Part shown: positions 3,956 to 62,594 of the stretch, piece by piece | How the letters are laid out: each line of letters begins with the position of its first letter | How positions within the stretch are numbered: position 1 is the stretch's first letter | Assembly: GCA_947589425.1 (NCBI GenBank) | Contig: CANQAV010000003.1 | Coordinates: forward strand, 38,186-102,185 | DNA length: 64,000 nt | Reading direction: 5' to 3' | Source of the DNA: Candidatus Gastranaerophilales bacterium | GTDB lineage: Bacteria; Cyanobacteriota; Vampirovibrionia; Gastranaerophilales; Gastranaerophilaceae | Notes under the pieces: model-generated | What the model saw: the letters and a program-made list of their open reading frames with translations, nothing else | Database searches by the model: none | Told to the model about the DNA's origin: nothing | Position numbers and translations under genes: made by a program

Positions 3956-3963
3956 AACAAAAA

Positions 3964-5720: not shown

Positions 5721-5723
5721 AAA

Positions 5724-7808
5724 ATGGCGGCAGCCCCAAAACAAGGTAATCCTGTTTCCGAAATAGCTTTAGCAGGCTTTGTTATAATTTTAATATTGAT
5801 TTTACTTCTGGAGATGCCCAATTGGGTTATAAATTTTTCCATAAGCTTCAATATTACTTTAGGTATCGTACTTTTGATGATATCTCTATATGTTAACAAA
5901 CCCCTTGAATTGGCGGCATTTCCTTCAATCCTTCTTATAGGCACGGTCTTTCGTTTGGTATTATCAATTGCTTCCACTCGTCTGATTTTAGCAAAAGGAG
6001 ATGCGGGAGCCGTTGTTGAAGCATTCGGAAACTTTGTCACGGGCGGAAACATGGTTGTTGGCGGTGTTATTTTCTTAATTATCACCGTTGTTCAATTCAT
6101 GGTAATCACAAAAGGTGCCGAACGTATAGCAGAAGTTAGCGCAAGATTTGCACTTGATGCAATGCCCGGTAAGCAAATGACAATTGATGCCGATTTTAAC
6201 GCAGGTTTAATAGGTCCGGATGAAGCCGTTAAGCGCCGTGAAGATTTGCAAAGAGAGTCTTCGCTCTACGGCTCCATGGATGGTGCCATGAAATTCGTTA
6301 AAGGTGATACGATAGCGGGCATTATCATCACTTTAATCAACATTATAGGCGGTTTAATCATAGGTATATTATTAAACGGCATGAGTCCCGAAGATGCAGT
6401 AAATAAATACACGATTTTGACCATAGGCGACGGTTTGTCATCTCAAGTGCCTTCACTTTTAATGGCTATTTCATCAGGTATAGTTATGACACGTGCAACA
6501 GGAGGCGGAGTTGCTCTGGGGTCAGATTTGGCGGTGCAAATTTTATCAAAACCGACAAGTTTGTTTTTAGCTTCGGGATTTTTGATATTAATTGCCCTGT
6601 CATCAAGCGTAACAGGACTTCCGTGGTTTCCGTTTGTTGTATTTGCAAGCCTGTTAATAATAGGGGGATTATCGGTATTAATTAATCAAGATGTTGCCCA
6701 GCAATTAGGACAGTTGGATGCGGTTAAGCAAAATATGCAGGATTTGGTTAACCCGAATAAAATGTATGAAAGATTGGGCGTTGATGTTCTTTCTCTGCAA
6801 GTGGGAGCAGGTTTATTAATTATTGCAGACCCCGAACAGGACGGGCAACTTTTGGCTAAAATTGCAGCACTTCGTCAAAGAGTAACGGATGATTTAGGCT
6901 ATATCATTCCAAACATAAGAATTATGGATTCGTCCGCAATCGGAGATAATGAATATTTAATTTCAATCAGAGGCAATCCTGTTGCAAAAGGCTCGGTATA
7001 CCCGGGTAAACTTATGGTTATAGCCGATCAATATGATGCATTGGGCAAAAAATTGCCCGAAAATGCAATTGTGTCAATTGAGCCTACTTATCAATCACAG
7101 GCATATTGGCTAAATCCGCAAAATATAGGCAAAAACGATAAAATTCAAGCAATTGATGCGGTTGACGTTATTGTTACACACTTACAGGAGTGTGTCAGAA
7201 AATATGTTGATGAAGTGATGACAAAAACGGATGTCTTAAAGCTTATGGAGCTTGTTAAATCGCAAGACCCGACACTTGTTAATGACCTTGTACCAACAAT
7301 TATATCAACATCAGACTTAAGAAAAATATTTGTAAATTTAATCAGAGAAAAAGTTTCAATTAAAGATATTATCTTTATTTTTGAAAGACTATGCGACTAT
7401 GCAAGATTTTCAAAAGAACCGGATATTTTGTCGGAAAGACTAAGAGCGGCTCTTGGCAGACAAATTTGTCTTTCAAATTCTAATAAAGATAAAGTTTTAT
7501 ATGCTCTTACTCTCTCATCCGAATGGGAAAAAACACTTGATGACAGCTGTCAAAGAACAGAGCTCGGCACAATGTTTTTATTAAATCCTCTGCAGGTGCA
7601 GGAATTAATCGAATCAAGCGCCAACGCTCTTATGCGTGCTCAAAGCACAATAGGAGTACAGCCCGTTATATTATGTTCGCCCAGAATAAGACTTCCTCTG
7701 TATCAAATGCTTGAGCGCCACATTCCTACAATTGTCGTTATTTCGTACTCCGAATTAATAACCGATATAAGGGTTGAAGCAATTGATACAATCGGCGAAG
7801 GTTATTAA
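5724..7808 (+). CDS. flhA: Flagellar type III export gate protein FlhA
   Basis: 694 aa. FHIPEP-family motifs (ITKGAERIAEVSARFALDAMPGKQMTIDAD, MKFVKGD). Multi-TM N-domain plus a large cytoplasmic C-domain. Confidence 0.95.
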   Translation: MAAAPKQGNPVSEIALAGFVIILILILLLEMPNWVINFSISFNITLGIVLLMISLYVNKPLELAAFPSILLIGTVFRLVLSIASTRLILAKGDAGAVVEAFGNFVTGGNMVVGGVIFLIITVVQFMVITKGAERIAEVSARFALDAMPGKQMTIDADFNAGLIGPDEAVKRREDLQRESSLYGSMDGAMKFVKGDTIAGIIITLINIIGGLIIGILLNGMSPEDAVNKYTILTIGDGLSSQVPSLLMAISSGIVMTRATGGGVALGSDLAVQILSKPTSLFLASGFLILIALSSSVTGLPWFPFVVFASLLIIGGLSVLINQDVAQQLGQLDAVKQNMQDLVNPNKMYERLGVDVLSLQVGAGLLIIADPEQDGQLLAKIAALRQRVTDDLGYIIPNIRIMDSSAIGDNEYLISIRGNPVAKGSVYPGKLMVIADQYDALGKKLPENAIVSIEPTYQSQAYWLNPQNIGKNDKIQAIDAVDVIVTHLQECVRKYVDEVMTKTDVLKLMELVKSQDPTLVNDLVPTIISTSDLRKIFVNLIREKVSIKDIIFIFERLCDYARFSKEPDILSERLRAALGRQICLSNSNKDKVLYALTLSSEWEKTLDDSCQRTELGTMFLLNPLQVQELIESSANALMRAQSTIGVQPVILCSPRIRLPLYQMLERHIPTIVVISYSELITDIRVEAIDTIGEGY

Positions 7809-7889: not shown

Positions 7890-9230
7890 ATGTCCGACGC
7901 AAACACAGTCGTAATTGTAAGCGATAAGGAGGAGCTTGTTAATCAAATTTCTCAAAAACTTGTGCTGTTGAGAAATTTGGACAAAATTAAATCCTGTTCA
8001 ATTGATGAGGCACAAAACCTGCTTGAAGGTTTTTCTCCCAACGTGTGCATAATCCACTGTGAACATAATAACAATTTCGCCCTAAACCTTATCAAAAAAA
8101 TCAAAAAACAAGAAATCTTCAAAAACCTTCCGATTCTTTTAATTAACGAGAACTGTTCCCGTGAAGTTATAATAGATGCCTTTGACAGCGGAATTTCCGA
8201 TGTTCTTTTCATGCCGATTATTGACTATGAACTTTTAATAAGGGTAATCTGGTGTCTTGGCAAAAATGAACTCAATTTGAAAAATGAAGCAAGAGAAAAC
8301 ATACTGGTTGATTTAGGTGTAATACAAAGCGAAACAGGTGTTTATACTCAAAAATACTGTGAAGAAATATTGAAAAATGAAATTTCACAAACCAAAAAAT
8401 ATTCTCAACGAGCTTGTATACTGTTAATTTCTCCGGATAAAAAATATCCCGCATACAAAAGCCCGAAAGAATTTATTGAAGTAATCCAAAAATCCATACG
8501 TATCAACGATTTAATCGTGATAAAAGATGTGGATAAATTTTATGTATATTTGCAAAAAACAAAACTAAACGGAGCATACAGCGTATTTGAACGTATAAAT
8601 AACAATCTCGGAATTGACTGCGGTGCGAACGCAGGAGTTGTTGAAGTTATGGAACAAGAATTTAAAGATATAACGGAAGCGCTTGACGATGCTCTTCAAA
8701 AGGCAAATGAAAATACAAATTCCTTAATCGTTGCATCCGATTTTTATTCCGAACAAACTGAAAATGTGTCTATAGCAAGCTCTGATGAATATTTGGAAAA
8801 ACAGCAGAATAAAATTAACGAACAAGAGAACCAAAAGAAAACGCAAAACCACTCGGGAAAAAAATATGACAAAAACAGTTTAAAACTGTTTAATCAAGCA
8901 TATCTCAGAAAACTTAAAGTGGTTGTTAATCCCGTATTTAAAAAATATGAGGACATTTTAAAAATCAAAAAGCAAGATTTTGCAATAAACTTTTATACGG
9001 GCACTAAATCCTTTTTCAGTGTATCCTCGGGGGATGTAAATGCATCATTTGCCCTTGAATATGACTGCGTAGAAAATGTATGCGTACGCCTCAGCATAAC
9101 GGATAACGACCAAAAAAGGCTGTATGAAACTGAAACAGTAGATTTTACAATATTAGATTACAGAAAAGTATCTCTTATGATGAACGAATTAATTGATAAA
9201 TTCATCTTAATTTTAAAAGACAAATCTTAA
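7890..9230 (+). CDS. Pseudo-receiver (REC-like) + degenerate GGDEF-like domain + ~150-aa C-terminal region of unknown function
   Basis: REC-like fold pattern, but the acceptor position is His (NVCIIHCEH), the conserved Thr/Ser is Asn (PILLIN) and the conserved Lys is Met (DVLFMPI). The GGDEF signature position reads DVDKF (8526-8540). Confidence 0.6.
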   Translation: MSDANTVVIVSDKEELVNQISQKLVLLRNLDKIKSCSIDEAQNLLEGFSPNVCIIHCEHNNNFALNLIKKIKKQEIFKNLPILLINENCSREVIIDAFDSGISDVLFMPIIDYELLIRVIWCLGKNELNLKNEARENILVDLGVIQSETGVYTQKYCEEILKNEISQTKKYSQRACILLISPDKKYPAYKSPKEFIEVIQKSIRINDLIVIKDVDKFYVYLQKTKLNGAYSVFERINNNLGIDCGANAGVVEVMEQEFKDITEALDDALQKANENTNSLIVASDFYSEQTENVSIASSDEYLEKQQNKINEQENQKKTQNHSGKKYDKNSLKLFNQAYLRKLKVVVNPVFKKYEDILKIKKQDFAINFYTGTKSFFSVSSGDVNASFALEYDCVENVCVRLSITDNDQKRLYETETVDFTILDYRKVSLMMNELIDKFILILKDKS

Positions 9231-13367: not shown

Positions 13368-14809
13368 TAAGCTCCAATCGTGTTTCTAATAATAAAATCA
13401 AGATATTTCGGTATATAAATACCTAAAGTAAAAGCTATCACAAGTAAAATTGTTTGAGGGATATACATTGAAGGGTATATTTTTGATATATTTTCCTGTA
13501 TTTGAGTATGTTTTTGGGCATTTCTTTCGCCGAATACCATTTTGATAACAACTTTTGCCATTGCAAAAAGTATTACGGTTAATAAAAACAAAAACAAAGC
13601 GCACAGGATATAGTGTTTTTGAATTATAAGAGTTTTAACCGCCAAAAATTCGCTTATAAATATAACGCTCGGCGGGAAAGCGCAAATTCCCAAAAATGAA
13701 GCTATCCAAAGCCATGCCGTTTTATTATCAAGAGATGATAAGGCATTAATTGATTTAATTTTCTTTGTTTCAAACAGCTCCAAAATATTACCCGAAGTTA
13801 AAAAGTAAGAAGCTTTAATCAAAGAATGACCGATTAAATGGAGCACCATAGCATAATAAGCAACACCGCCCAAAGCGGCAGTTATTGCCAGAATACCCAT
13901 ATTTTCGATTGATGAATATGCAAGCATTCTTTTATAATTTGTTGTGTGGTATAAAAATACTGCCGTCACAAACAAAGACAAAAATCCCATAATCAGCATC
14001 ATAATTCTTGCATAAGCAAAACAATTTGCCGCAATCATTACTTTATATACATTTAAAATTACAAGAAATGCACAGTTTAACAAAGTTGCCGACAATAATG
14101 CCGATATCGGGCTGGGCGCTTGAGAGTGGGCATCGGGAAGCCAAAAATGAACAGGCGCAAGCCCCATTTTAGCCCCCAAACCGAAAAGTATAAATACAAA
14201 CGAAACATTAAGCCAAAAATGGTTGAAATTTTTTGCATTTGCCAATAAATCCGAATAATTAAGCGAGTTTAAGCTTCCTTCAGCCACCGTCAAAAGAATT
14301 ATTCCGACAAAAGCAAGCGCAATACCTATTGAACAAATAAAAACATATTTCCAGGCAGCTTCTATAGAGTGTTTTGTTTTATTAAAATATATCAAATAGG
14401 CGCTGGCTAAAGTTGTGCCTTCAATAAATATCCATGCCAGACCCAAGTTGTCCGCCAAAATTCCCCCTGTCATGGAAAGAACAAATATCAATATCATAAT
14501 TGCATAACGTGTCATCTTTTTTTCATTAAAAAGTTTATCCATGTTCCTTGAATAGCCGATGTTGTAGATTGAAACACCGAGATATACAACGGATAAAACC
14601 AAATAAAAAACTATATTTGAAGAATTTAAGCTAAAATATTGATTTTGTCCTAAATATTGAAGGTTAGTGAAATAAAACACCCCCAAAAGCGAATGCACAA
14701 CAGCATATAAAAAGACGAGAAAACTGTTAAGTCTTTTTTTTCTGAATATGAACATTACTAAACATAATACTAAAGGTAATATCAAAACCAAATTAATCAT
14801 TATTTTCAA
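13367..14809 (-). CDS. Antiporter-like membrane subunit (HyfF/HyfD, NuoM/N family)
   Basis: 480 aa polytopic protein. Proton-conducting-transporter motifs (GLAPVHFWLPDAHSQAP; MLAYSSIENMG). Confidence 0.85.
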   Translation of the reverse strand: MKIMINLVLILPLVLCLVMFIFRKKRLNSFLVFLYAVVHSLLGVFYFTNLQYLGQNQYFSLNSSNIVFYLVLSVVYLGVSIYNIGYSRNMDKLFNEKKMTRYAIMILIFVLSMTGGILADNLGLAWIFIEGTTLASAYLIYFNKTKHSIEAAWKYVFICSIGIALAFVGIILLTVAEGSLNSLNYSDLLANAKNFNHFWLNVSFVFILFGLGAKMGLAPVHFWLPDAHSQAPSPISALLSATLLNCAFLVILNVYKVMIAANCFAYARIMMLIMGFLSLFVTAVFLYHTTNYKRMLAYSSIENMGILAITAALGGVAYYAMVLHLIGHSLIKASYFLTSGNILELFETKKIKSINALSSLDNKTAWLWIASFLGICAFPPSVIFISEFLAVKTLIIQKHYILCALFLFLLTVILFAMAKVVIKMVFGERNAQKHTQIQENISKIYPSMYIPQTILLVIAFTLGIYIPKYLDFIIRNTIGA

Positions 14810-15443
14810 AGTCCTTTAAGTCTGATAAATGTGCTACTTCCATATCTCCCAATTCGGAATTAATTTCCGAAACAAAAAGTCCCAAAATATAAATTGCAAT
14901 AAATACATCCAGCAAAACACCGATGTTTACAAGCATGGGCATTTCTTTTGCAACAGAGAGGGAAAGAAGGAAAATTCCGTTTTCCATTGTGATAAATTCA
15001 ATCACGTTAGATAAAATTTTGTGTTTAATTGTAATTAGCCAAAGGCTTATAATTATTGCGGATAATGCCATACCGAAGCATATCGGATTAATTAAAGACA
15101 GGGAAGGAATTTCCACAACTCCCAATAAAAACCCTCCGAAAAGTATTATGCTTGAAATCAAAAGGCAGTAAAAATGTGCGATATTTGCATCCGTATCCCT
15201 GTTCGAGTGGGTTTTTTTCAATACTTTATTTAAAAACCATGGTATCAAAATTGCTTTTACAACAAGAGTTTCAACCGTTAAAAATAAAACAATGTACCAC
15301 GGTGCCTGTTTAAAGCCTGCCGCACAAATTAAAAACAACAAAACACCCTGTACAATAAGAGTTTTAATGTGTGCAACAAGCCTGCTCGTTGCGGATAGAT
15401 AAAGCATTGTAAGTCCGAATAAAATTATAAAACCATCGACCAT
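14793..15443 (-). CDS. HyfE-like small membrane subunit
   Basis: 216 aa, very hydrophobic. Sits between the HyfC-like and HyfF-like genes, as in E. coli hyf (E. coli HyfE is also 216 aa from memory). Confidence 0.7.
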   Translation of the reverse strand: MVDGFIILFGLTMLYLSATSRLVAHIKTLIVQGVLLFLICAAGFKQAPWYIVLFLTVETLVVKAILIPWFLNKVLKKTHSNRDTDANIAHFYCLLISSIILFGGFLLGVVEIPSLSLINPICFGMALSAIIISLWLITIKHKILSNVIEFITMENGIFLLSLSVAKEMPMLVNIGVLLDVFIAIYILGLFVSEINSELGDMEVAHLSDLKDFENND

Positions 15444-55619: not shown

Positions 55620-56876
55620 TTAATATTTGTTTTTAAGAAGCTCTTCAACAACGGCAATGAGTGCAATTTTAACGTGGAAATAACTCAAGCCGCCCTGTAA
55701 ATATATGGCATAAGGAAATCTTACGGGGCCGTCCGCCGATAATTCTATAGTAGAGCCTTCAATGAAACTTCCGCCCGCCATAAGCAGATTACAGTCATAT
55801 CCGGGAACTGTATCGGGAATTGGAGTAAGATAGCTTTCAATCGGGGAATTTTTTTGTATCATTGCACAAAATGCCTGTTGTTCTTTTTCATTATTTAATT
55901 TTATTGTCTGAATTAAGTCTGTTCTTTTTGTTTGATGTGAAGGAAACGTGCAAAAGCCCATATCTTCAAACACTTTCGCAGCTAAAATCGAGCCTTTGAG
56001 TGCATTTGAAACTATATTCGGAGCCATAAAAAATCCTTGAAGAATAATTCTTGTTTGATTATGCATAGCTCCGCCCTGCGCACCTATTCCGGGCGCCGTC
56101 AGACGGCGTGATGCCATATCCACATATTCTTTTTTCCCTGCTATATAGCCTCCGGCTTCTACTATACCCCCTCCGGGGTTTTTAATTAAACTTCCGGCAA
56201 TTAAGTCGGCTCCGACTTCGGTCGGCTCTTTTTTTTCGCAAAATTCGCCATAGCAGTTATCAACAAAACAACAGATATCGGGATTTTTATTTTTAACTTT
56301 TTTTATAATTTTTTCTATATCATCAATTGTCAGAGGATGTCTTAGGGAATATCCTCTTGAGCGCTGAATTAAAACCATTTTTGTATCGGGAAGAAGATAT
56401 TTTTCAATATTGTCAAAATCAACTTCAATTCCGTCTTTTAAAGGAACTTCGCTATATTTAACCCCATGCCCCATAAGGCTTGTATTAAAATCATCACAAT
56501 TAGGACGTGAGCCTATTATTTGCTGCATCGTATCATAAGGCTCTCCCGCAATTGAAACAAGCCTGTCATTGTGCCTTAAAACTCCAAACAAAGCACAGGC
56601 AATCGTATGAGAGCCCGAAACAAAATGCGGACGCACAATTGCGCTTTCGGTCTTGAAAACATCTTTATATACGCAATCAAGGGCTTCTCTGCCGATATCG
56701 TCGTGTCCGTAGCCTGTTACCGTGTAAAAATGTTCTTCCCCTATTTTATTTTTACAAAAAGCATCAAGGACTTTTTTTTGATTAAATTCATTTATTTCAT
56801 CACACTCGAGGAAAATATCCCGAAGGCTTTCCTGCGCATTATTTACAATTTCTTTTGCTTTTGTTGAGATATCCAT
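55620..56876 (-). CDS. YnbB-like PLP-dependent enzyme (methionine gamma-lyase / aluminium-resistance family)
   Basis: 418 aa. HFYTVTGYGHDDIGREALD, RPHFVSGSHTIA and SLIKNPGGG match my memory of the YnbB family. Confidence 0.7.
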   Translation of the reverse strand: MDISTKAKEIVNNAQESLRDIFLECDEINEFNQKKVLDAFCKNKIGEEHFYTVTGYGHDDIGREALDCVYKDVFKTESAIVRPHFVSGSHTIACALFGVLRHNDRLVSIAGEPYDTMQQIIGSRPNCDDFNTSLMGHGVKYSEVPLKDGIEVDFDNIEKYLLPDTKMVLIQRSRGYSLRHPLTIDDIEKIIKKVKNKNPDICCFVDNCYGEFCEKKEPTEVGADLIAGSLIKNPGGGIVEAGGYIAGKKEYVDMASRRLTAPGIGAQGGAMHNQTRIILQGFFMAPNIVSNALKGSILAAKVFEDMGFCTFPSHQTKRTDLIQTIKLNNEKEQQAFCAMIQKNSPIESYLTPIPDTVPGYDCNLLMAGGSFIEGSTIELSADGPVRFPYAIYLQGGLSYFHVKIALIAVVEELLKNKY

Positions 56877-56897
56877 AGAGCAATTTTAACACAAAAA

Positions 56898-56920
56898 AAT
56901 CACCTTATAAAAAGGTGATT
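56898..56920 (-). terminator. Intrinsic terminator after the 56939-57310 gene
   Basis: AATCACCTT-ATAAA-AAGGTGATT, followed by a T-run on the minus strand. Confidence 0.7.
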
Positions 56921-56938
56921 TGCTATATTAAATCTTTC

Positions 56939-57310
56939 TTATTCGCCGTAGTACATAATTTCAACGGCATAATCAGGAGCATCAATCATAGCGCCGTATT
57001 TAGAATATTTAAAAGGCTCTGATTGTTTTTCGCCATGTTGAAATATATTTTTTAATATTGCAAGACCGCCTGCAATAACTGCGCCGATACCTGCATATCT
57101 TAAAATTGAACGGCTTTGAGCACGCTGTGACATAACGGCTTTGCTGAAAGTATCTTTATTAAATACGGAAGAAAGGTCTTTTTTAGCAGGCAAAACATAG
57201 CGTGAAAGCGCACCAACAGAAGCACCCGCAGCGGTTGCAAGCATAACGTGTGCATTTCTTCTTTTTGGTGTTTGTGCTGAATTAATTGCCTTAATTTCCA
57301 TTTTATTCAC
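56939..57310 (-). CDS. Small membrane protein, unknown function
   Basis: 123 aa with two Gly/Ala-rich hydrophobic segments (VMLATAAGASVGAL; AGIGAVIAGGLAIL). Start is GTG 57310 or ATG 57301. Confidence 0.5.
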   Translation of the reverse strand: MNKMEIKAINSAQTPKRRNAHVMLATAAGASVGALSRYVLPAKKDLSSVFNKDTFSKAVMSQRAQSRSILRYAGIGAVIAGGLAILKNIFQHGEKQSEPFKYSKYGAMIDAPDYAVEIMYYGE

Positions 57311-57500
57311 GCTTTCTTCACAAGGTAATCATGTCAAAATCCCTTTTTTAAAAGGTTTGACACTAACAACTTACTCATCTTGATTTGGATTAAACTCAAA
57401 TCAGGTGTTTTAAAAATTTGATTTTGCCTAACGAATTCTCAAATTTTTACTATTGTATCACATAAAAATCACTATGTCAACACATGAAAAAATATAAAAA

Positions 57501-57782
57501 TTAATTTTCGGGGATTTGAATTTCGCTTCCGCTTTCTAAGGAAGAAGGAAGGATTTTAGAAGGGTCAAGCGTTCCCTGCGAGAACATTTCTTCGAGTCTT
57601 TTCTTTGTTTCTTTAAAAAGCTGTTCTTTTTCTTTGGGAGAAAAATTAAATTTATCGATAGCCGCTCTGATTTCTTCATCACTTGGCATTGTAAGGGCAT
57701 TTTGGATTGTATTTTCATCTTGTGCCAGTGCAACATTTAAAAATAAAAGCAGACTTAAAAATAAAAAAGTTAATTTTTTCAT
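57501..57782 (-). CDS. Small secreted protein, unknown function
   Basis: 93 aa. Clear signal peptide MKKLTFLFLSLLLFLNVALAQ. Confidence 0.55.
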   Translation of the reverse strand: MKKLTFLFLSLLLFLNVALAQDENTIQNALTMPSDEEIRAAIDKFNFSPKEKEQLFKETKKRLEEMFSQGTLDPSKILPSSLESGSEIQIPEN

Positions 57783-57817
57783 ATTTTTCTCCTTCTTTTT
57801 TATTATAGAATATTTTT

Positions 57818-59188
57818 ATGAGTTTTGTAAATGAGTTAAAAAATGCATGTCCTAATGATTTTCTTTCAAAAAAAGAAGATTTATTTGTATATGCTTATGA
57901 CACAACAAAAAATCCCGATAAAATCAATCTTCCTTTAGCGGTTGTGCATCCGAGAAATGCTTTTGAAGTATCTGAAGCAGTTAAAGTGTGTCAAAAATAT
58001 AATGTGGCAATTGTACCGAGAGCAAAAGGCACAAACCACTGCGGAGCAACAAGAATAGGAGAAAAATCAATTGTTGTTCATTTTTCAAAAATGGATAAAA
58101 TTATATCAATTGATAAAGAAAATCTTATTGCAATAGTTGAGCCCAATGTTGTAATCGGGGATTTGAATAAAGAGCTTGATAAATATAATCTTTTCTTTCC
58201 TCCCGATCCTTCAAATTTAAGCGTTTCAACAATAGGAGGGGCAATTGCTCTATGTTCCGGCGGACCGAGAACATTTAAATACGGAAATACAAAAGATTAT
58301 GTTATAAATCTGGAAGTGGTTTTAGCGGACGGAACGATTATCGAAACATCAAAAAATATTGCAAAAAATGTAACAGGATATAATATCACCTCTTTGTTTA
58401 CGGGCTCCGAAGGCACTTTAGGACTTATTACAAAAGCAACATTAAGGCTTATTCCAAAACCCCAGAGCCGTCTTTTAACTCTTGCATATTTTAACACCTT
58501 GGAAGATGCGGCAAAATGTACGAATAATATTATTAATCAAGGTTTTATACCTTCAACGATTGATTTAGTCGATAAAATTACTTTGCAGACAATTGAAAAA
58601 TATAATCCCTGCGGGCTTTTAGACAGTTATGAAGCCGCACTTTTAATTGAATTGGACGGTTTTTTTGATTGTGTTTTAATTGAAAACGAAATTTTAAAGA
58701 AAATTCTTGTTAATTCAAATGCAAAAAATATTGTTCAGGCAAAAAATGACGAAGAAAATGAAAATATCTGGAGAGCAAGAAGGAGCGCATTCAGTGCTTT
58801 GGGGCAGTTAAAGCCCAATGTTGTGACCGAAGATATTGTTGTAAAAAGAAGCGATATTATTAAATGTATTAAAAAAATCGCAGAACTGGCGGATAAATAT
58901 TCAATAATTACCGCTATAATGGGTCATATAGGAGACGGAAATATTCATCCCAACTTTGCACTTGACCTTGAGGATAAAATTCAAAAAGAAAATTTTGAAA
59001 AATTAAAAGACGAATTATTTCATTTTGCAATTTCAATCGGAGGAACTCTCTCAGCAGAGCACGGTATAGGGAATGAAAAGAAAAAATATCTTGAAGATGC
59101 GCTTGATAGGGGAGCTCATCAAATGATGAAAAAAATCAAAAATCTTCTTGATGAAAATTCTATCTTTAACCCTGATAAATCAATATGA
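57818..59188 (+). CDS. FAD-linked oxidase (GlcD / D-lactate dehydrogenase family)
   Basis: 456 aa. PCMH-type FAD-binding domain (PLAVVHPRNAFEVSEAVKVC...IVPRAKGTN) and C-terminal HGIGNEKKKY. Confidence 0.85.
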   Translation: MSFVNELKNACPNDFLSKKEDLFVYAYDTTKNPDKINLPLAVVHPRNAFEVSEAVKVCQKYNVAIVPRAKGTNHCGATRIGEKSIVVHFSKMDKIISIDKENLIAIVEPNVVIGDLNKELDKYNLFFPPDPSNLSVSTIGGAIALCSGGPRTFKYGNTKDYVINLEVVLADGTIIETSKNIAKNVTGYNITSLFTGSEGTLGLITKATLRLIPKPQSRLLTLAYFNTLEDAAKCTNNIINQGFIPSTIDLVDKITLQTIEKYNPCGLLDSYEAALLIELDGFFDCVLIENEILKKILVNSNAKNIVQAKNDEENENIWRARRSAFSALGQLKPNVVTEDIVVKRSDIIKCIKKIAELADKYSIITAIMGHIGDGNIHPNFALDLEDKIQKENFEKLKDELFHFAISIGGTLSAEHGIGNEKKKYLEDALDRGAHQMMKKIKNLLDENSIFNPDKSI

Positions 59189-60528
59189 TAAACAAAATTA
59201 AAGAATATAAAAATATAATTTTAGATATAATCAAGCTTTCCGTACCTATTTTGGGCGGAAATGTTTCACAAATTCTTATCGGATTTATTGACACCATAGC
59301 GGCAGGAAGATATTCAACACAGGCGCTCGGCGCAATCAGCGTTGCAAGCGCAATTGTAATGACTTTTACAATAGGTGCAATAGGTATAATTTTAAGTATC
59401 AGCCCCGCTATTTCAAATATGAGAGGGCAAAAGCTCCCTTCAAAAAGATATTTCAAGCTTACAATTTTATTTTCGCTTTTGATTTCAATACCTTTTTTTG
59501 TTCTTCTTGAAATTTTTCTTTCAAATCTTGACAGAATAGGTCTCAGTTTTGAAATTAAGGATATGGTTAAAGAATATATAGCTATATGCGCATGGAGTAT
59601 ATTTCCCGCAGTATTGTTCAGCGCAATTAAAGAATTTTTACAGGCATGGGAAAAAGTTGTTTTTGCAAATATTCTTATGATTTTTATGGTTGTTTTAAAT
59701 GCGGTTTTAAATTTTGTTTTGGTTTTCGGGCTTGATTTTTCTTTTATTCACATATCATCTCTCGGGGTTAGGGGTATTGCCCTTGCAACACTTATTTCAA
59801 AGACATTATCGGGAATTATTATATTTTTATATGTCATTCCTTTGCTAAAAGCTCCCTTTCAATATTCAAAAAAATATATTAAAGATTTATTTAAAATCGG
59901 ACTTCCGATATCATTTGCAATATTTTTTGAATTTTTGGGATTTAATTTATCCGCTGTTTTAATAGGAAAATTTTCGGCTCTTTTTGCTGCAGTGCATAAT
60001 ATAATTTTGTGTATTGCAAACTTTACTTTTATGATAGTCCTTTCGGTTGCAAACGCTGCAAGCATTAAAATAGGTTTTTATAACGGAAGAAACGACAAAA
60101 AAAGCATTAAAAAATATACAATTTCATCAATTATAATATCAATGAGCGTCTGCCTTATAACGTTTATTATTCTTATTTTCTTCTCAGATGGCGTTATTAA
60201 GATATTTTCAGGCGATATTGAAGTAATTAATTTATCAAAGAAAATTTTAAAAATCGCAGTCGCATTTTTGTTTTTCGACGGTATGCAGGGAACTTGCGTG
60301 GGTATTTTAAAAGGTTTAAAAGACACAAAAATCATTATGGCAACAATGCTTTTTGCATATCTGGTAATTGCCCTGCCTTTCGGCTCATATCTTGCATTTT
60401 ATAAAAACATTGTACTTGAAGGCTATTGGCTGGGCTTTGCATTGGCGTTGTTTTTTGCTTCAGTTGTTACACTGTCGAGGGTGGTTTTTGATATTAAAAA
60501 GATGAAAGAAATTGGGCATGAATTTTGA
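59185..60528 (+). CDS. MATE-family efflux transporter
   Basis: 447 aa with 12 predicted TM helices. The N-terminus (ILDIIKLSVPILGGNVSQILIGFIDTIAAGR) is typical of the NorM/MATE family. ATGA overlap with the upstream gene. Confidence 0.88.
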   Translation: MINKIKEYKNIILDIIKLSVPILGGNVSQILIGFIDTIAAGRYSTQALGAISVASAIVMTFTIGAIGIILSISPAISNMRGQKLPSKRYFKLTILFSLLISIPFFVLLEIFLSNLDRIGLSFEIKDMVKEYIAICAWSIFPAVLFSAIKEFLQAWEKVVFANILMIFMVVLNAVLNFVLVFGLDFSFIHISSLGVRGIALATLISKTLSGIIIFLYVIPLLKAPFQYSKKYIKDLFKIGLPISFAIFFEFLGFNLSAVLIGKFSALFAAVHNIILCIANFTFMIVLSVANAASIKIGFYNGRNDKKSIKKYTISSIIISMSVCLITFIILIFFSDGVIKIFSGDIEVINLSKKILKIAVAFLFFDGMQGTCVGILKGLKDTKIIMATMLFAYLVIALPFGSYLAFYKNIVLEGYWLGFALALFFASVVTLSRVVFDIKKMKEIGHEF

Positions 60529-60646
60529 TTATCGAAAGCAAAGTGAAACAATTTGCAATATTTTCACGTGCACTTAAGCACCTTGCCATGTCGCAATAAA
60601 CTCAAACAAGCTTCATAAACCTTCTTTTTTACCTTCTACCCCTCAG

Positions 60647-60667
60647 ACCCTGAAATAAATTCAGGGT
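60647..60667. repeat. Hairpin module ACCCTGAA-N5-TTCAGGGT, preceded by CTACCCCTCAG
   Basis: Read directly. The same module recurs at 62389-62409. Confidence 0.8.
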
Positions 60668-60726
60668 GACAGCATACAAGGATGTCGGTATTCTAACACT
60701 CAACTACACATGTCATGCTGAATTCA

Positions 60727-60806
60727 TTTCAGCATCTGACCAAGCCTCGGAATACTCAATAATGTTGCAAACCATGTTCCTTTCATTCCCTACCCCTCAG
60801 ACCCTG
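60727..60806. repeat. 80-nt interspersed repeat block, left copy
   Basis: tttcagcatctGaccaagcctcggaatactcaataatgttgcaaaccatgttcctttcattccctacccctcagaccctg. Differs from 62315-62394 at one base (G/T). A second shared 24-nt block lies at 60841-60864 and 62452-62475. Confidence 0.9.
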
Positions 60807-60992
60807 TAAACACCTCGGCTTCGCCTACAGATACAGGCTCACAAGGCTCGTACCTCGCCTGTTCATTTTGTTACAATCTTCGACAAAGCTCAGATGTTCA
60901 CTTTTGTAAAATCCTGCTCCCGCAACCAATTAAATTCAAAAACCATTCCATACGGGAGGGTTTTTTATTATAGAGCTTGCTATCGCTACATT

Positions 60993-61394
60993 TTACTTCC
61001 AATAAGTTTTAAAATCTTCAATTTGTTTTAGTGTATTTTGATAATCTCCATTGAACCCGATTGCTCTATCATCAAGATAGATATAGGCGGGCTCTTTGAC
61101 GTTAGTTACGTCTTTAAAATATTTATCCATTTTATTTTCTATCAACCATTTTGTTGCTTCAAGGTTGTTTCTTGTTGTGAATAAAACTAAATCATAATCT
61201 ATATTTAACTTCTGTACAAATTCTCTTGCACCTTGTCTAAGTTTGGGCAGTTTATTTTCATCATATTTTCCCTCATACATATTCAAGACCCCGTCAAGGT
61301 CAATCATAATCGTTTTTCTTTTTTCCATATCTGCCCCCTTAACCATAGGAATGCTAAAGGCAAAAATCAACACCAGAATTAAAAATTTTTTCAT
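60993..61394 (-). CDS. Secreted HAD-like hydrolase (5-prime(3-prime)-nucleotidase-like)
   Basis: 133 aa. Signal peptide, then the DxD motif IMIDLDGVL and LVLFTTR. Confidence 0.6.
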   Translation of the reverse strand: MKKFLILVLIFAFSIPMVKGADMEKRKTIMIDLDGVLNMYEGKYDENKLPKLRQGAREFVQKLNIDYDLVLFTTRNNLEATKWLIENKMDKYFKDVTNVKEPAYIYLDDRAIGFNGDYQNTLKQIEDFKTYWK

Positions 61395-61506
61395 AAAATA
61401 CGAGCCTTATGAATTAACTATATTACATTTACCCATACTATGTAATAGTATAAATGAATATATAATATTGTTATTATAAAGTCAAGTTAAATATAGGTAT
61501 ATATAA

Positions 61507-61680
61507 ATGACTTTTGACAGAAAACTAATCCGAAATGGCAATGGTTGGGCAATGACTCTCAATTCAACTATATTGGAATTTTTGGATGTAAATCCTGAAA
61601 TTAATATGGTAAAATATACTCTTTATAATAATATGCTTGTTATTAAAAAGAGTAGTAAAAAAGTAGAGATAAAAAAATAA
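61507..61680 (+). CDS. AbrB/MazE/SpoVT-like small DNA-binding protein, paralog 1 (57 aa; not in the ORF track)
   Basis: My own translation gives MTFDRKLIRNGNGWAMTLNSTILEFLDVNPEINMVKYTLYNNMLVIKKSSKKVEIKK. Clearly paralogous to the ORF at 61770-61949. Confidence 0.6.
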   Translation: MTFDRKLIRNGNGWAMTLNSTILEFLDVNPEINMVKYTLYNNMLVIKKSSKKVEIKK

Positions 61681-61769
61681 TTATTATACATATAGGTACT
61701 AAGTAAGATTATTAAATAATACATACAAAATATATGATAATTAAAATTACTTTGTTAGGAAATTATCAT

Positions 61770-61949
61770 ATGGCACTTGACAGAAAATTAATCCGAAACG
61801 GCAATGGATGGGCATTGACAATAAATTCAACTATTTTAGGCTTGTTGGATGTAGACCCTGAAGTCAATATGGTTAGATATAACGTTGAAAATGACAAATT
61901 GATTATAACAAAGAGCGAAAAAACGGTAGAAAAGAAGACTGTTGATTAA
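61770..61949 (+). CDS. AbrB/MazE/SpoVT-like small DNA-binding protein, paralog 2 (59 aa)
   Basis: MALDRKLIRNGNGWALTINSTILGLLDVDPEVNMVRYNVENDKLIITKSEK.... AGGAA lies 8 nt upstream of ATG 61770. The ORF-track start at 61734 is an extension. Confidence 0.65.
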   Translation: MALDRKLIRNGNGWALTINSTILGLLDVDPEVNMVRYNVENDKLIITKSEKTVEKKTVD

Positions 61950-62187
61950 AGCTGTGCAATATATAAATTTAAGAAAATTCATCAAGAAAAGGCGCCTAGA
62001 GAACGATATTTCTCTTAATTCTTTTGCATTTGAAAATGATATCGACCCTGCGATTTTATCCAGAATTGAGAACTTGAAGCAAAACATTAAATTGAATATT
62101 TTAGAAAAAATTGCGCAAGGTTTTAGCGCAACTCCTGCACAATTTTTGACGGAGTTTGAAAATGATGATGGTGTTTTTGATAAATAA
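61942..62187 (+). CDS. XRE-family helix-turn-helix regulator
   Basis: LRKFIKKRRLENDISLNSFAFENDIDPAILSRIENLKQNIKLNILEKIAQGF is a Cro/C1-type HTH. The TTG start overlaps the stop of the previous gene; GTG 61954 is an alternative start. Confidence 0.7.
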   Translation: MIKAVQYINLRKFIKKRRLENDISLNSFAFENDIDPAILSRIENLKQNIKLNILEKIAQGFSATPAQFLTEFENDDGVFDK

Positions 62188-62314
62188 ATTTTTTGTTTAG
62201 AGAATTTAATTTTGAAGGCAAAAATATTTAGGGGTAGATGTTTAATGGTTTCAATTGTCACGCTGAACTGACTGGAAAATAGCGTGCATCGTGATTTTCT
62301 GTCCTCTGTGAGTG

Positions 62315-62394
62315 TTTCAGCATCTTACCAAGCCTCGGAATACTCAATAATGTTGCAAACCATGTTCCTTTCATTCCCTACCCCTCAGACCCTG
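62315..62394. repeat. 80-nt interspersed repeat block, right copy
   Basis: Same orientation as 60727-60806, with one mismatch. Followed by hairpin 62389-62409 and two more TTCAGGG(T/C)GAC words. Confidence 0.9.
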
Positions 62395-62594
62395 AAACGA
62401 GTTCAGGGTGACAAAGGAAAGGGTGATGTGATTAATGCATACTTCAGGGCGACAAGGCTCGTACCTCGCCTGTTCGCTTTGTAAAATTCAGGGTGACGGG
62501 GTAGAGCAACCTCTTTCGTTTGCACTTAATAAATTAAACTTTACTTTCCTAAAACCTGCATTCTTCCTTACACCAAGAAGGACAACCCTTTCAA

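What the first reader, a model, noticed from the sequence alone, without database searches (positions are those of the whole stretch)
60727..62394. ~1.5-kb accessory cassette bracketed by near-identical 80-nt direct repeats and shared mosaic modules
The 80-nt block at 60727-60806 recurs in the same orientation at 62315-62394 with a single G/T difference. A second 24-nt block (acaaggctcgtacctcgcctgttc) follows both copies, at 60841-60864 and 62452-62475. The interval between the copies carries only small accessory-type genes: a secreted HAD-like protein on the minus strand, two AbrB/MazE-like paralogs, and an XRE regulator. It sits between housekeeping genes (MATE pump, map). Direct repeats flanking a small regulator-rich cassette resemble att-like scars of an integrated or decaying element, or a recombination substrate that can delete or amplify the cassette. 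No integrase or transposase is present, so any mobility would have to act in trans or be extinct.
Basis: partly seen in the sequence, partly recalled or inferred. Interest (0 to 1): 0.65.

Follow-up and report, generated by a model that had tools for sequence, protein, structure and literature searches.

The report
Hairpin repeat arrays bracket gene cassette
The 80-base direct repeat is real, but it is two copies of a small hairpin-repeat unit (a REP-type element of the kind recognised by Ssn single-strand nucleases) that is scattered through this rabbit-gut bacterium and its relatives. Arrays of these repeats recur around this small phosphatase-plus-regulators cassette, so the site is more likely a recombination hot spot than the scar of an integrated element.

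Summary
The blocks 60727-60806 and 62315-62394 differ at one base, and the 24-nt block is exact in both copies. The window is core chromosome of a Gastranaerophilales (Melainabacteria) bacterium from rabbit gut.

The repeats are not cassette-specific att sites. Both long intergenic regions are mosaic arrays built around a 29-nt TGTC-tagged stem-loop: an 8-bp stem with compensatory variation, a 5-nt loop and a 3-nt tail. This fits the CGTC-tagged REP superfamily (Di Nocera 2013) and the repeats associated with Ssn GIY-YIG nucleases (Chenal 2025).

The 80-mer is the inner part of a REP dimer: half a hairpin, a 57-nt spacer, and half of the inverted partner hairpin. In the source metagenome the hairpin and the 24-nt block occur at roughly 30-50 copies per genome. 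The 80-mer core occurs at only about 3-6.

The cassette family is nevertheless linked to these arrays. A HAD-like phosphatase with divergent small regulators is bracketed by them in 3 of 4 genomes, and it is tandemly duplicated in one. No empty-site or junction polymorphism was found in five samples of the same species.

This is a new member of a known kind and is of moderate interest.

The parts
60529..60992 (.). Left intergenic region (464 nt, 41% GC) between the convergent 3' ends of MATE and the HAD-like gene. It is a mosaic array of dispersed short repeats, comparable to a Neisseria NIME or an E. coli BIME.
   Evidence: Short-read contigs of the same species end between 60684 and 60799, several of them inside the left 80-mer.
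60573..60642 (+). Decayed copy of the dimer spacer. Together with REP-1 it forms an older copy of the 80-mer unit, 61% identical.
   Evidence: (family D1)
60643..60671 (-). REP-1, a complete tagged hairpin. On the + strand it reads TCAG-ACCCTGAA-ataaa-TTCAGGGT-GACA, so the TGTC tag is on the - strand.
   Evidence: DNA fold -7.7 kcal/mol, z=-3.8.
60711..60739 (+). REP-2, a complete hairpin: TGTC-ATGCTGAA-ttcat-TTCAGCAT-CTGA. The left 80-mer starts in its loop. This is the highest-copy module in the source metagenome, at about 45-50 copies per genome equivalent.
   Evidence: Fold -8.3 kcal/mol, z=-3.1.
60727..60806 (+). Left 80-mer: the 3' half of REP-2, a 57-nt spacer (60740-60796), and the 5' half of an inverted REP (TCAGACCCTG). 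This is the inner part of a REP dimer with tags outward; its right hairpin is cut off in the loop.
   Evidence: No fold of its own, z=+1.07. Core depth is only 16-30x against 5x for single-copy sequence.
60809..60870 (+). '24-nt block' module, about 62 nt and extending to 60908 in some relatives. It is a dispersed repeat specific to Gastranaerophilales and is analogous to the RS elements of Neisseria arrays.
   Evidence: 84-95% identity to 15 places in five other Gastranaerophilales MAGs, whereas coding DNA is about 74% identical to MAG SIG26.
60938..60968 (.). Terminator-like hairpin with A/T runs on both sides, about 25 nt beyond the HAD-like stop codon. It is a candidate bidirectional terminator, which would place the REP array in the 3' UTR of the MATE gene.
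   Evidence: -6.2 kcal/mol, z=-2.7. The simple terminator scan did not call it.
60993..61394 (-). HAD-like small phosphatase with an N-terminal hydrophobic leader. It is the conserved core gene of the cassette family.
   Evidence: Homologues reach 88% aa identity in rabbit Gastranaerophilales MAGs.
61507..61680 (+). Small paralog 1 (57 aa), a possible AbrB/MazE-type DNA-binding protein.
   Evidence: (D2)
61770..61949 (+). Small paralog 2 (59 aa from the ATG at 61770; gene callers give 71 aa from 61734).
61954..62187 (+). XRE-family HTH regulator (77 aa from the GTG at 61954; 81 aa from the TTG at 61942). It is 91.7% identical at the nucleotide level to the XRE gene of the L034 cassette.
62188..62594 (.). 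Right intergenic region (407 nt, 41% GC) between the convergent 3' ends of XRE and map. It is the second mosaic repeat array.
   Evidence: It is 81-83% identical to the arrays that follow the HAD genes in L033.
62256..62327 (+). REP-4, a hairpin split in its loop: 5' half TGTCACGCTGAA (62256-62267), a 48-nt insert, then 3' half TTCAGCATCTTA (62316-62327). The right 80-mer begins at 62315, the last base of the insert.
   Evidence: The same half-hairpin followed by CTGACTrGAAAATAgCG recurs in other contigs (table 5c).
62315..62394 (+). Right 80-mer, the same inner part of the dimer. Here the right hairpin is complete.
62385..62413 (-). REP-5, a complete hairpin: TCAG-ACCCTGAA-acgag-TTCAGGGT-GACA.
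   Evidence: Fold -7.5 kcal/mol, z=-2.3.
62443..62534 (+). Second copy of the 24-nt block module, flanked by the REP-like half sites TTCAGGGCGACA and TTCAGGGTGAC, plus a tail module. A third copy of this stretch, in inverted orientation, lies about 2.8 kb beyond the end of the window (L007:7111-7186, 92%).

Best explanation
The two long intergenic regions are mosaic arrays of dispersed short repeats.

The core unit is a 29-nt tagged stem-loop, 5'-TGTC | A-Y-N-C-Y-G-A-A | 5-nt loop | T-T-C-R-G-N-R-T | CTN-3'. It belongs to the CGTC-tagged REP superfamily. Those are the hairpin repeats now known as NTS or Ssn-related motifs, which small GIY-YIG nucleases of the Ssn family bind and cut as single-stranded DNA.

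The 80-mer is not an independent element. It is the inner part of a REP dimer with tags outward: the 3' half of one hairpin, a 57-nt spacer, and the 5' half of the inverted partner. The locus holds three copies of this dimer: one old copy (61% identical) and two nearly identical ones. Each of the two recent copies is interrupted in a hairpin loop by other short modules.

The arrays bracket a small accessory unit (a HAD-like phosphatase plus divergently transcribed small regulators). The same kind of unit is bracketed by the same kind of array in related genomes.

Most likely mechanism:
1. The hairpins spread and are reshuffled as non-autonomous repeats. The agent is probably an Ssn-type nuclease encoded elsewhere in the genome, together with breakage and repair at extruded hairpins.
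2. The resulting direct repeats on either side of the cassette give homologous substrates for RecA-type deletion, duplication and allelic exchange. This resembles Neisseria intergenic mosaic arrays and minimal mobile elements.

Shown: the identity, copy number, structure and distribution of the repeats; their association with the cassette family; and the duplication in a relative.

Inferred: the involvement of Ssn in this particular genome, and any actual gain or loss at this site.
For: Repeat anatomy.

Hairpin structure:
- The window's hairpins fold with z from -2.3 to -3.8, whereas the 80-mer alone has z=+1.07.
- Sixty unique hairpins that were not part of any search pattern are 97.9% paired. 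Pair 6-22 occurs as GC 27, CG 16 and UA 13. Pair 8-20 occurs as UA 46 and CG 9. None of 500 shuffles reaches this.

Dispersal:
- Depth is 225-258x (hairpin) and 96-212x (24-nt block) against about 5x for unique sequence, with many different loose ends.
- The 24-nt block 18-mer hits 15 places in five other Gastranaerophilales MAGs.
- The hairpin occurs in at least 120 metagenome and 15 viral contigs, usually as an inverted doublet with tags outward.
- 88% of placeable hairpins are intergenic.

Match to a published family: tag CGTC or TGTC, 8-9 bp stem, 4-5 nt loop, 3-nt tail, and heterodimers with tags outward and 20-100 bp spacers (PMC3733652).

Link to Ssn:
- GIY-YIG genes chosen by protein similarity are framed by the same hairpins in Gastranaerophilales (L172, L095).
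- The same holds in all 6 isolate replicons inspected, from 4 phyla or classes.
- This agrees with Chenal et al. 2025 (PMC11893778).

Cassette association.

Closest described architecture: Neisseria NIME arrays made of dRS3 plus RS elements (PMC3898611).
Against: - The published SRM search string does not match the window's hairpins, nor those flanking the Gastranaerophilales Ssn homologues (0 hits).
- The 3-nt tail is CTN, not the CCA consensus.
- No ssn gene lies in the 64-kb window or in the further ~9 kb held for this species. The only hint is an Ssn-like fragment at about 6x depth in the same metagenomes, which cannot be linked to this genome.
- No deletion, duplication or empty-site allele was seen in same-species contigs from five samples. 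Short-read contigs cannot resolve recombination across an 80-nt repeat.
- One homologous cassette (L034) has no REPs at its flanks.
- L028 carries a distant XRE/HAD pair about 4 kb downstream of its MATE gene without REPs. The cassette could therefore be an old neighbour rather than an import.
Confidence: 0.7

Rival explanations
1. The 80-mers are attL/attR scars of an element that integrated by site-specific recombination and is now decaying or mobilised in trans.
For: The near-identical direct repeats bracket a low-GC cassette (28% against 34%) of accessory-type genes, at a point where synteny with relatives ends immediately downstream of MATE.
Against: No integrase was found among the ~58 larger ORFs of the window that were scanned. 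The repeat ends lie in the loops of multi-copy hairpins. The hairpin and the 24-nt block are present at tens of copies. Homologous cassettes in L032 and L033 are bracketed by repeats that share only the hairpin, not the 80-mer. A third, decayed copy lies 154 nt upstream of the left one.
Confidence: 0.06
2. Coincidence. REP arrays simply accumulate in long convergent intergenic regions, and the two 80-mers reflect local duplication or gene conversion between neighbouring arrays. They have no bearing on the cassette, which is an ordinary, vertically inherited gene group.
For: Both arrays lie between convergent 3' ends. Hairpins are somewhat commoner per intergenic region in convergent ones (0.36 against 0.21-0.28). 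All same-species contigs are identical in arrangement. L028 has a distant XRE/HAD pair near MATE without REPs.
Against: By coordinates in the ORF list, the seven other convergent intergenic regions in the window are each under 50 nt, and none carries a REP; the REP scan and self-BLAST find the modules nowhere else in intergenic sequence. Three arrays lie within about 6 kb here. Cassette-flanking intergenic regions are strongly enriched for REPs across four genomes (6 of 9 against about 2 of 137). L033 shows a tandem duplication whose unit is the cassette plus its array. The XRE gene is 91.7% identical at the nucleotide level to that of L034, although the best MATE homologue anywhere is 70% at the protein level.
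Confidence: 0.22
3. The conserved blocks act mainly at the RNA level, as 3'-UTR stabilisers or terminators for MATE and the XRE operon, or as duplicated small-RNA genes.
For: They are located at 3' ends. The hairpins are stable. REPs in E. coli are known to stabilise upstream mRNA (general knowledge). A terminator-like hairpin lies distal to the array.
Against: No Rfam family matches, even at E<=5. The hairpins occur in both orientations within one array. The 80-mer has no structure. Hairpins are also common in divergent and 5'-proximal intergenic regions. SsnA does not act on RNA (PMC11893778). No RNA runs are available. This role does not exclude the best explanation.
Confidence: 0.1
4. The 80-nt repeat is a target-site duplication. 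The cassette was inserted into a single pre-existing REP dimer after staggered cuts at the two hairpin loops.
For: The left copy keeps the whole left hairpin and only the 5' half of the right hairpin. The right copy keeps the whole right hairpin. Both ends of the shared block lie at or next to hairpin loops. REP hairpins are recurrent insertion points elsewhere (L033, in the loop; L175, just past it in the 3' stem).
Against: The 5' half of the left hairpin of the right copy is present 48 nt upstream (62256-62267), so that hairpin is interrupted rather than truncated. The interrupting sequence and the 24-nt block are themselves dispersed modules, not cassette DNA. Ssn cuts 5' of the tag, not in the loop.
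Confidence: 0.04
5. The repeats are integron attC sites (a cluster of attC sites without an integrase), or the ends of an IS200/IS605-type or RAYT-mobilised element.
For: Hairpin-forming direct repeats separate small gene units. Arrays of cassette plus repeat occur in L033.
Against: The 80-mer does not fold. The cassette has four genes in two orientations with its own divergent promoter region. There is no GTAG tag. No Y1 transposase, TnpB or integron integrase was found among the scanned ORFs of the window.
Confidence: 0.02

Closest known systems
CGTC-tagged REPs (Di Nocera, De Gregorio and Rocco 2013, BMC Genomics 14:522; PMC3733652)
   Same: An unpaired 4-nt tag at one end (CGTC, often TGTC). 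An 8-9 bp stem starting with A. A 4-5 nt loop and a 3-nt unpaired tail. Mostly inverted dimers with tags outward, made of unlike partners, with 20-100 bp spacers. Intergenic, with tens to thousands of copies.
   Different: The stem is AT-richer (AYNCYGAA). The tail is CTN instead of CCA. The host is a Gastranaerophilales bacterium; that paper found only GTAG repeats in the phylum Cyanobacteria. The same hairpin occurs in very diverse metagenomes and in viral contigs.
NTS / Ssn-related motifs with Ssn GIY-YIG single-strand nucleases (Chenal et al. 2025, Nat Commun 16:2388; PMC11893778)
   Same: Oriented hairpin repeats with a GTC-containing 5' flank. They frame small single-domain GIY-YIG genes in related Gastranaerophilales genomes (L172, L095). 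They cluster around particular genes in a repeat-gene-repeat layout.
   Different: The published degenerate search string does not match these hairpins. No ssn gene is visible in the sequence available for this genome. Cleavage, and any effect on transformation, are untested; competence is not known for this group.
Neisserial intergenic mosaic elements (dRS3 plus RS repeats) and minimal mobile elements (PMC3898611)
   Same: Intergenic arrays of 200-2700 bp built from a short hairpin repeat alternating with 30-160 bp repeat modules. The arrays flank variable or accessory genes. Identical repeats on both sides are proposed as insertion or deletion sites. A small cassette lies between conserved housekeeping genes.
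   Different: The phylum and the module sequences differ. No strain-to-strain cassette replacement has been shown here.
E. coli BIMEs and Pseudomonas REPINs with RAYT transposases
   Same: Mosaic intergenic arrays of inverted REP hairpins. They are non-autonomous repeats presumably spread by a single-copy enzyme that is itself framed by the repeats.
   Different: Those carry a GTAG tag and a Y1 (HUH) transposase. Here the tag is TGTC/CGTC and the associated enzyme family is GIY-YIG. The two hairpins of a dimer here do not pair with each other.
Integron gene cassettes with attC sites
   Same: Small gene units separated by structured direct repeats, and tandem arrays of unit plus repeat in a relative (L033).
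   Different: There is no integrase. The repeat as a whole is not an imperfect palindrome. The units hold several genes in two orientations with their own promoters.

Membership tests
CGTC-tagged REP superfamily | Unpaired terminal tag CGTC (TGTC or CCTC allowed) at one end of the hairpin | tested here: met
   TGTC at 60711-60714. GACA (the reverse complement of TGTC) at 60668-60671 and 62410-62413. CGTC in the related copies that flank GIY-YIG genes.
CGTC-tagged REP superfamily | Stem of 8-9 bp, with A and T in the first two positions, and a loop of 4-5 nt | tested here: met
   8-bp stems: ATGCTGAA (REP-2) and ACCCTGAA (REP-1 and REP-5, where the second base is C). Loops are 5 nt. Covariation in 60 independent copies.
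CGTC-tagged REP superfamily | Short unpaired 3-nt tail, consensus CCA | tested here: inconclusive
   A conserved 3-nt tail exists, but it reads CTG, CTT or CTA rather than CCA.
CGTC-tagged REP superfamily | Multi-copy, mainly intergenic, and mostly inverted dimers with tags outward | tested here: met
   About 45-50 copies per genome equivalent. 88% intergenic. Doublets with tags outward in most of 150 occurrences. In the window, REP-2/REP-3 and REP-4/REP-5 form such dimers.
Ssn-related motif (SRM/NTS) | Matches the published degenerate search string HGTCWYN(0-2)YYVSBRHN(0-5)WNVSBRGN(0-2)RNCYNB | tested here: not met
   0 matches in the window, L172, L173, L095, L032 and L033. There are matches in the proteobacterial controls L180, L181 and L183.
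Ssn-related motif (SRM/NTS) | The same hairpin frames an ssn (single-domain GIY-YIG) gene in the genome | tested here: inconclusive
   Met in related Gastranaerophilales contigs. In L172 the ORF lies inside a perfect inverted pair of hairpins; L095 is similar. It cannot be checked for the window's own genome, of which only about 73 kb is held. An Ssn-like fragment at about 6x depth is present in the same metagenomes.
Ssn-related motif (SRM/NTS) | Bound and cut as single-stranded DNA by the cognate Ssn nuclease | not testable with these tools
   This needs biochemistry.
REPIN / RAYT (GTAG REPs) | GTAG tag, and a Y1 transposase gene framed by the repeats | tested here: not met
   No GTAG tag. 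No Y1_Tnp hit among the window ORFs scanned.
Integrated element with att sites (prophage, ICE, IME) | A recombinase gene, and boundary repeats that are specific to the element | tested here: not met
   No integrase was found among the ~58 larger ORFs of the window that were scanned. The boundary repeats are made of multi-copy modules.
Integrated element with att sites (prophage, ICE, IME) | An empty-site allele with a single repeat in other strains | tested here: inconclusive
   Five samples of the same species all carry the cassette. The nearest other species are only 70% identical in MATE and are not collinear downstream of it. Contigs built from 31-mers cannot reveal recombination across 80 nt.
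Integron attC / attC cluster without integrase | The repeat folds as one imperfect palindrome with RYYYAAC...GTTRRRY ends, and each cassette holds one promoterless ORF | tested here: not met
   80-mer fold z=+1.07. The cassette has four genes, two orientations and an internal divergent promoter region.
Minimal mobile element (Neisseria type) | Different whole-gene cassettes between the same two conserved genes in different strains | tested here: inconclusive
   No strain variation was seen. In other species the position after MATE holds different genes: L027 has a GntR-like gene, and L028 and L030 have a response-regulator-HD gene.
AbrB/MazE/SpoVT swapped-hairpin proteins (the two small paralogs) | Sequence-profile match, or a significant fold match to the beta-beta-alpha-beta-beta swapped-hairpin domain | tested here: inconclusive
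   No Pfam or PDB sequence hit. The model has the right order of elements. MazE, AbrB-N and C56/C68 are among the top Foldseek hits, but E>0.2 and TM is 0.25-0.44.

The most novel reading that the evidence does not exclude
In Melainabacteria, arrays of these TGTC-tagged hairpins, together with an Ssn-type single-strand nuclease, form an integrase-free cassette-exchange system. Under this reading 'array-cassette-array' units are what is duplicated, lost and passed between species. Breakpoints would lie at hairpin loops, and the nuclease would gate which incoming single-stranded DNA can recombine. That would extend the Neisseria NTS/minimal-mobile-element idea to an unrelated phylum of gut bacteria.
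Probability: 0.2. Interest if true: 0.6.

Novelty: new member of a known kind. Interest (0 to 1): 0.4.

Why it matters
This finding places CGTC-type REP / Ssn-related hairpins in the non-photosynthetic, Cyanobacteria-related gut lineage Gastranaerophilales.

The published search string for Ssn-related motifs misses an AT-rich variant. That variant is nonetheless abundant across sediment, groundwater, lake, wetland and gut metagenomes and in viral contigs. The reach of the Ssn/repeat system is therefore probably underestimated.

There is also a practical consequence. These arrays are where short-read assemblies of this organism break: contigs end between 60684 and 60799, in or just before the left 80-mer. 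They contribute to MAG fragmentation and can create chimeric joins.

The recurrent bracketing of one accessory cassette family by such arrays offers a concrete, testable case for repeat-mediated gene flux in an uncultured gut lineage.

Tried and rejected
- **Rfam** at gathering and at permissive thresholds, and a **tRNA/tmRNA** scan: nothing relevant.
- **RNA runs**: none available.
- **Exact scan of the 80-mer core in JGI metagenomes**: no hit. The contexts of the few extra copies therefore remain unseen.
- **Apparent 'joints' in Logan contigs** (for example 60724->62290 and 60671->62425): rejected as deletions. They carry extra letters between the two sides and represent other mosaic loci.
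- **L003**: it diverges from the window beyond 62534 into an 82-nt palindromic element. This was not accepted as a junction polymorphism, because it lies in the last 77 nt of a 3x contig that ends inside repeat modules.
- **Protein families recurrently next to the hairpins**: only the small GIY-YIG gene emerged.
- **The search for related loci for that protein in viral contigs**: it returned only the locus already held.
- **A first idea that the GIY-YIG/REP link was new**: dropped after finding Chenal et al. 2025.
- **Target-site-duplication model**: considered and largely rejected (see rival explanations).
- **Sequence searches for the AbrB-like paralogs in Pfam and PDB**: nothing found.


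Full report
**Observation.** The 80-nt block at 60727-60806 recurs in direct orientation at 62315-62394 with one difference (G at 60738, T at 62326). With a 1-nt gap the match runs to 85 nt. The 24-nt block is exact at 60841-60864 and 62452-62475. Neither is expected by chance: 0 matches in 100 shuffles. Both copies lie in unusually long, GC-richer non-coding regions between convergent gene ends. The left region is 60529-60992 (MATE> <HAD-like) and the right is 62188-62594 (XRE> <map). Each is 41% GC, against 34% for the window and 28% for the cassette. A third copy of the 80-mer, 61% identical, sits at 60573-60655.

**Gene content.** The 'AbrB/MazE-like' label for the two paralogs (65% identical) rests only on a moderate-confidence model with the right beta-beta-alpha-beta-beta order and on non-significant fold hits to MazE, AbrB and C56/C68. 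Pfam and PDB sequence searches found nothing.

**Organism and setting.** The stretch is held by rabbit-gut metagenome runs. The 18-mer core of the 24-nt block hits MAGs labelled Candidatus Gastranaerophilales or 'Cyanobacteria bacterium SIG26', several of them from rabbit. The window is ordinary core chromosome. It carries flagellar export genes, a hydrogenase-4-like complex, glnA, glgC, folD, alr, the glycine cleavage system, gyrA, dnaB, dnaK, mur genes and ddl. No transposase, integrase or GIY-YIG gene was found among the ~58 larger ORFs scanned.

**What the repeats are.** A short palindromic unit recurs only in these two intergenic regions of the window. Written in full it is TGTC-AYNCYGAA-(5 nt)-TTCRGNRT-CTN.
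- There are three complete copies: 60643-60671 and 62385-62413 in one orientation, and 60711-60739 in the other.
- There is one copy split in its loop by 48 nt (62256-62267 and 62316-62327).
- There are several half copies.

Each complete copy folds as an 8-bp stem with a 5-nt loop (z from -2.3 to -3.8). The 80-mer itself has no fold (z=+1.07). The 80-mer starts at the last loop base of one hairpin and ends in the 5' stem of the inverted partner, two bases short of its loop. It is therefore the inner part of a hairpin dimer with a 57-nt spacer, not an autonomous unit.

**Dispersal.** When Logan contigs of the two source runs are laid on 60630-60880, unique flanks have depth of about 5. The hairpin at 60711-60737 reaches 225-258 and the 24-nt block 96-212. 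The core of the 80-mer reaches only 16-30, where about 10 is expected from the two local copies. Many unrelated loose ends are seen. The hairpin and the 24-nt block are thus high-copy dispersed repeats, at roughly 30-50 copies per genome equivalent. The particular dimer spacer is low-copy.
- A further copy of the right-hand module lies about 2.8 kb beyond the end of the window, in inverted orientation (L007:7111-7186).
- The 62-nt module around the 24-nt block occurs at 15 places in five other Gastranaerophilales MAGs at 84-95% identity. Coding DNA between this genome and SIG26 is only about 74% identical.
- The hairpin is far more widespread. It is usually followed after 3-30 nt by a second hairpin in inverted orientation with a different stem.
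- Among 60 unique second hairpins, which were not part of the search pattern, 97.9% of stem cells pair. Fully compensatory variants occur (GC, CG and UA at one pair; UA and CG at another), and no shuffle of 500 reaches this level.
- The hairpins are 88% intergenic, with only a mild preference for convergent intergenic regions.

**Known family.** These features match the CGTC-tagged REP superfamily of Di Nocera et al. 2013: tag CGTC or TGTC, an 8-9 bp stem beginning with A, a 4-5 nt loop, a 3-nt tail, and dimers with tags outward made of unlike partners with 20-100 bp spacers (PMC3733652). That paper found no dedicated transposase.

While looking for proteins recurrently next to the hairpins, I found only a small GIY-YIG gene, framed by hairpins on both sides.
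- Loci chosen by the protein alone confirmed the link. In L172, which is SIG26-like, the ORF lies inside a perfect inverted pair CGTC-ACCCTGAA-cttga-TTCAGGGT-CTA.
- So did 6 of 6 isolate replicons: Azospirillum, Sinorhizobium, Novosphingobium, Neisseria, Spirosoma and Planktothrix.

This link is already published. Chenal et al. 2025 describe the Ssn family of site-specific single-strand DNases. Their hairpin repeats are called NTS or Ssn-related motifs. The authors report the repeat-ssnA-repeat layout, clustering of the repeats around particular genes, and reduced transformation by repeat-bearing DNA in Neisseria meningitidis (PMC11893778). Their degenerate search string does not match the window's hairpins or those flanking the Gastranaerophilales homologues, although it does match the proteobacterial controls. 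The hairpins here are therefore an AT-richer variant that the published pattern misses.

The overall array design is a short hairpin alternating with 30-160 nt repeat modules in 200-2700 bp intergenic arrays next to variable genes. This is what is called a neisserial intergenic mosaic element (PMC3898611).

**The cassette.** Contigs of the same species from five samples (99.5-100% identical) all carry the same arrangement. Short-read assemblies break inside or just before the left 80-mer. The nearest other species have MATE proteins at most 70% identical. FAD-oxidase>MATE is conserved, but what follows MATE differs: a GntR-like gene in L027, and a response-regulator-HD gene in L028 and L030. 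No comparable empty site exists.

The HAD-like gene has homologues up to 88% identical, and each is divergently paired with small HTH regulators in different contexts.
- In L032 the unit is bracketed by direct repeats of 32, 51 and 32 nt (94-97%) that include the same hairpin.
- In L033 the unit plus its array is tandemly duplicated (1570-nt period; segments 83-100% identical) and followed by a third HAD 3' fragment. Its arrays are 81-83% identical to the window's right-hand array.
- L034 has no hairpins, but its XRE gene is 91.7% identical at the nucleotide level to the window's.

Across the four genomes, 6 of 9 cassette-flanking intergenic regions carry hairpins, against about 2 of 137 others (plus manual count). 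By coordinates in the ORF list, the seven other convergent intergenic regions in the window are each under 50 nt, and none carries a hairpin. Hairpins are also recurrent breakpoints, in or just next to the loop. Examples are 48 nt in the loop at 62268-62315, about 125 nt in the loop in L033, and about 125 nt just past the loop, in the 3' stem, in L175.

**Interpretation.** The repeats are dispersed REP-type hairpin dimers and companion modules, not att sites. This part is well supported. Their recurrent bracketing of this cassette family, and the duplication seen in L033, make it likely that the arrays act as recombination boundaries for gain, loss, duplication or exchange of the cassette. An Ssn-type nuclease may spread or break the hairpins. 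This part is inferred. No polymorphism was seen at this site, no ssn gene is visible in the roughly 73 kb held for this genome, and only an unlinked Ssn-like fragment at similar depth is present in the same metagenomes.

**Rivals.**
- Site-specific integration scars: disfavoured.
- Coincidental accumulation of REPs: plausible, but it does not explain the enrichment or the duplication.
- RNA-level roles: not exclusive of the main explanation.
- An 80-nt target duplication: weak.
- Integron or IS200-type ends: the defining features are not met.

**Verdict.** This is a new member (an AT-rich, TGTC-tagged variant in a new lineage) of a known kind, namely CGTC REP / Ssn-related repeats arranged in mosaic arrays. 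Interest is moderate.

Noticed in passing
L036-L170 (metagenome and viral contigs fetched by the hairpin pattern): The exact hairpin TGTCACCCTGAA-N5-TTCAGGGTCT occurs in at least 120 contigs from very different habitats (GC 30-59%) and in 15 IMG/VR contigs. It is mostly part of a doublet with a second, unlike hairpin (typically AGATGCTGAAACAAGTTCAGCATGACA). The published Ssn-related-motif search string does not match this class.
   Followed up: partly
L172:1452-1832; L095:11295-11734; L180-L185: Small GIY-YIG (Ssn-family) genes are framed by inverted CGTC/TGTC hairpins in Gastranaerophilales contigs and in all 6 isolate replicons inspected. In Azospirillum lipoferum 4B the gene sits between sufB and sufC. 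In Sinorhizobium meliloti it sits between gltA and lpxB, with about 175-nt direct repeats (whole REP dimers) on both sides. This agrees with Chenal et al. 2025.
   Followed up: yes
window 62268-62315; L033:6576-6702 and 8143-8268; L175:1373-1486: REP hairpins are interrupted in or just past the loop by recurrent inserts of 48 to about 125 nt. The L033 insert begins 'actgtcttgg', and the same insert start appears in the viral contig L158. This suggests a second layer of small elements that target the hairpins.
   Followed up: no
L033:5992-8351: There is a tandem duplication (1570-nt period) of the HAD-like gene plus its REP array. The last 75 nt of the two HAD genes are 100% identical while the first 300 nt are 83% identical. 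A third, 5'-truncated HAD fragment follows the second array. The pattern looks like repeated unequal recombination or gene conversion.
   Followed up: partly
window 61948-62198 vs L034:5117-5367: The XRE regulator gene is 91.7% identical at the nucleotide level to that of another rabbit MAG (GCA_947587615.1). The neighbouring HAD-like gene is 83% identical, and the middle regulators differ in kind (AbrB-like here, two more XRE genes there). The cassette interior is therefore mosaic, which may reflect exchange between species.
   Followed up: no
L003:1-77 (joins the window at 62534): One same-species contig (99.5% identical) continues beyond 62534 into a different sequence. That sequence is an 82-nt near-perfect palindromic element with ends GTGCACTTAGTGAAATATTACTGC. 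It is either a strain-specific insertion next to map or an assembly switch inside a repeat module.
   Followed up: partly
L007:6864-7194 (about 2.8 kb beyond the window's end): A third repeat array lies in the next long intergenic region. It includes a 92% copy of window 62453-62528 in inverted orientation, so that map, the GntR-like gene and a 474-aa gene of unknown function lie between inverted repeat modules.
   Followed up: no
window 60684-60799 (ends of contigs L001-L005): Independent short-read assemblies of this species all end between 60684 and 60799, in or just before the left 80-mer. These repeat arrays are therefore a cause of MAG fragmentation here.
   Followed up: yes
window 14852 (inside ORF 14793-15443, hydrogenase-4-like membrane subunit): The relaxed hairpin detector (at most 1 stem mismatch) gave one hit inside a coding region. 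It may be a chance match or an intragenic REP.
   Followed up: no
window 55620-60528 vs L028:2388-9326: The order Met-gamma-lyase ... FAD-oxidase > MATE is conserved with a relative whose MATE is 70% identical. Collinearity stops exactly at the left repeat array. L028 carries a distant XRE/HAD pair about 4 kb further downstream, without hairpins.
   Followed up: partly
window 2246-7808: Flagellar genes (fliF, fliH-like, flhA) and a lytic transglycosylase are present. This is consistent with the flagellated lifestyle reported for gut Melainabacteria (my own recollection, not checked here).
   Followed up: no
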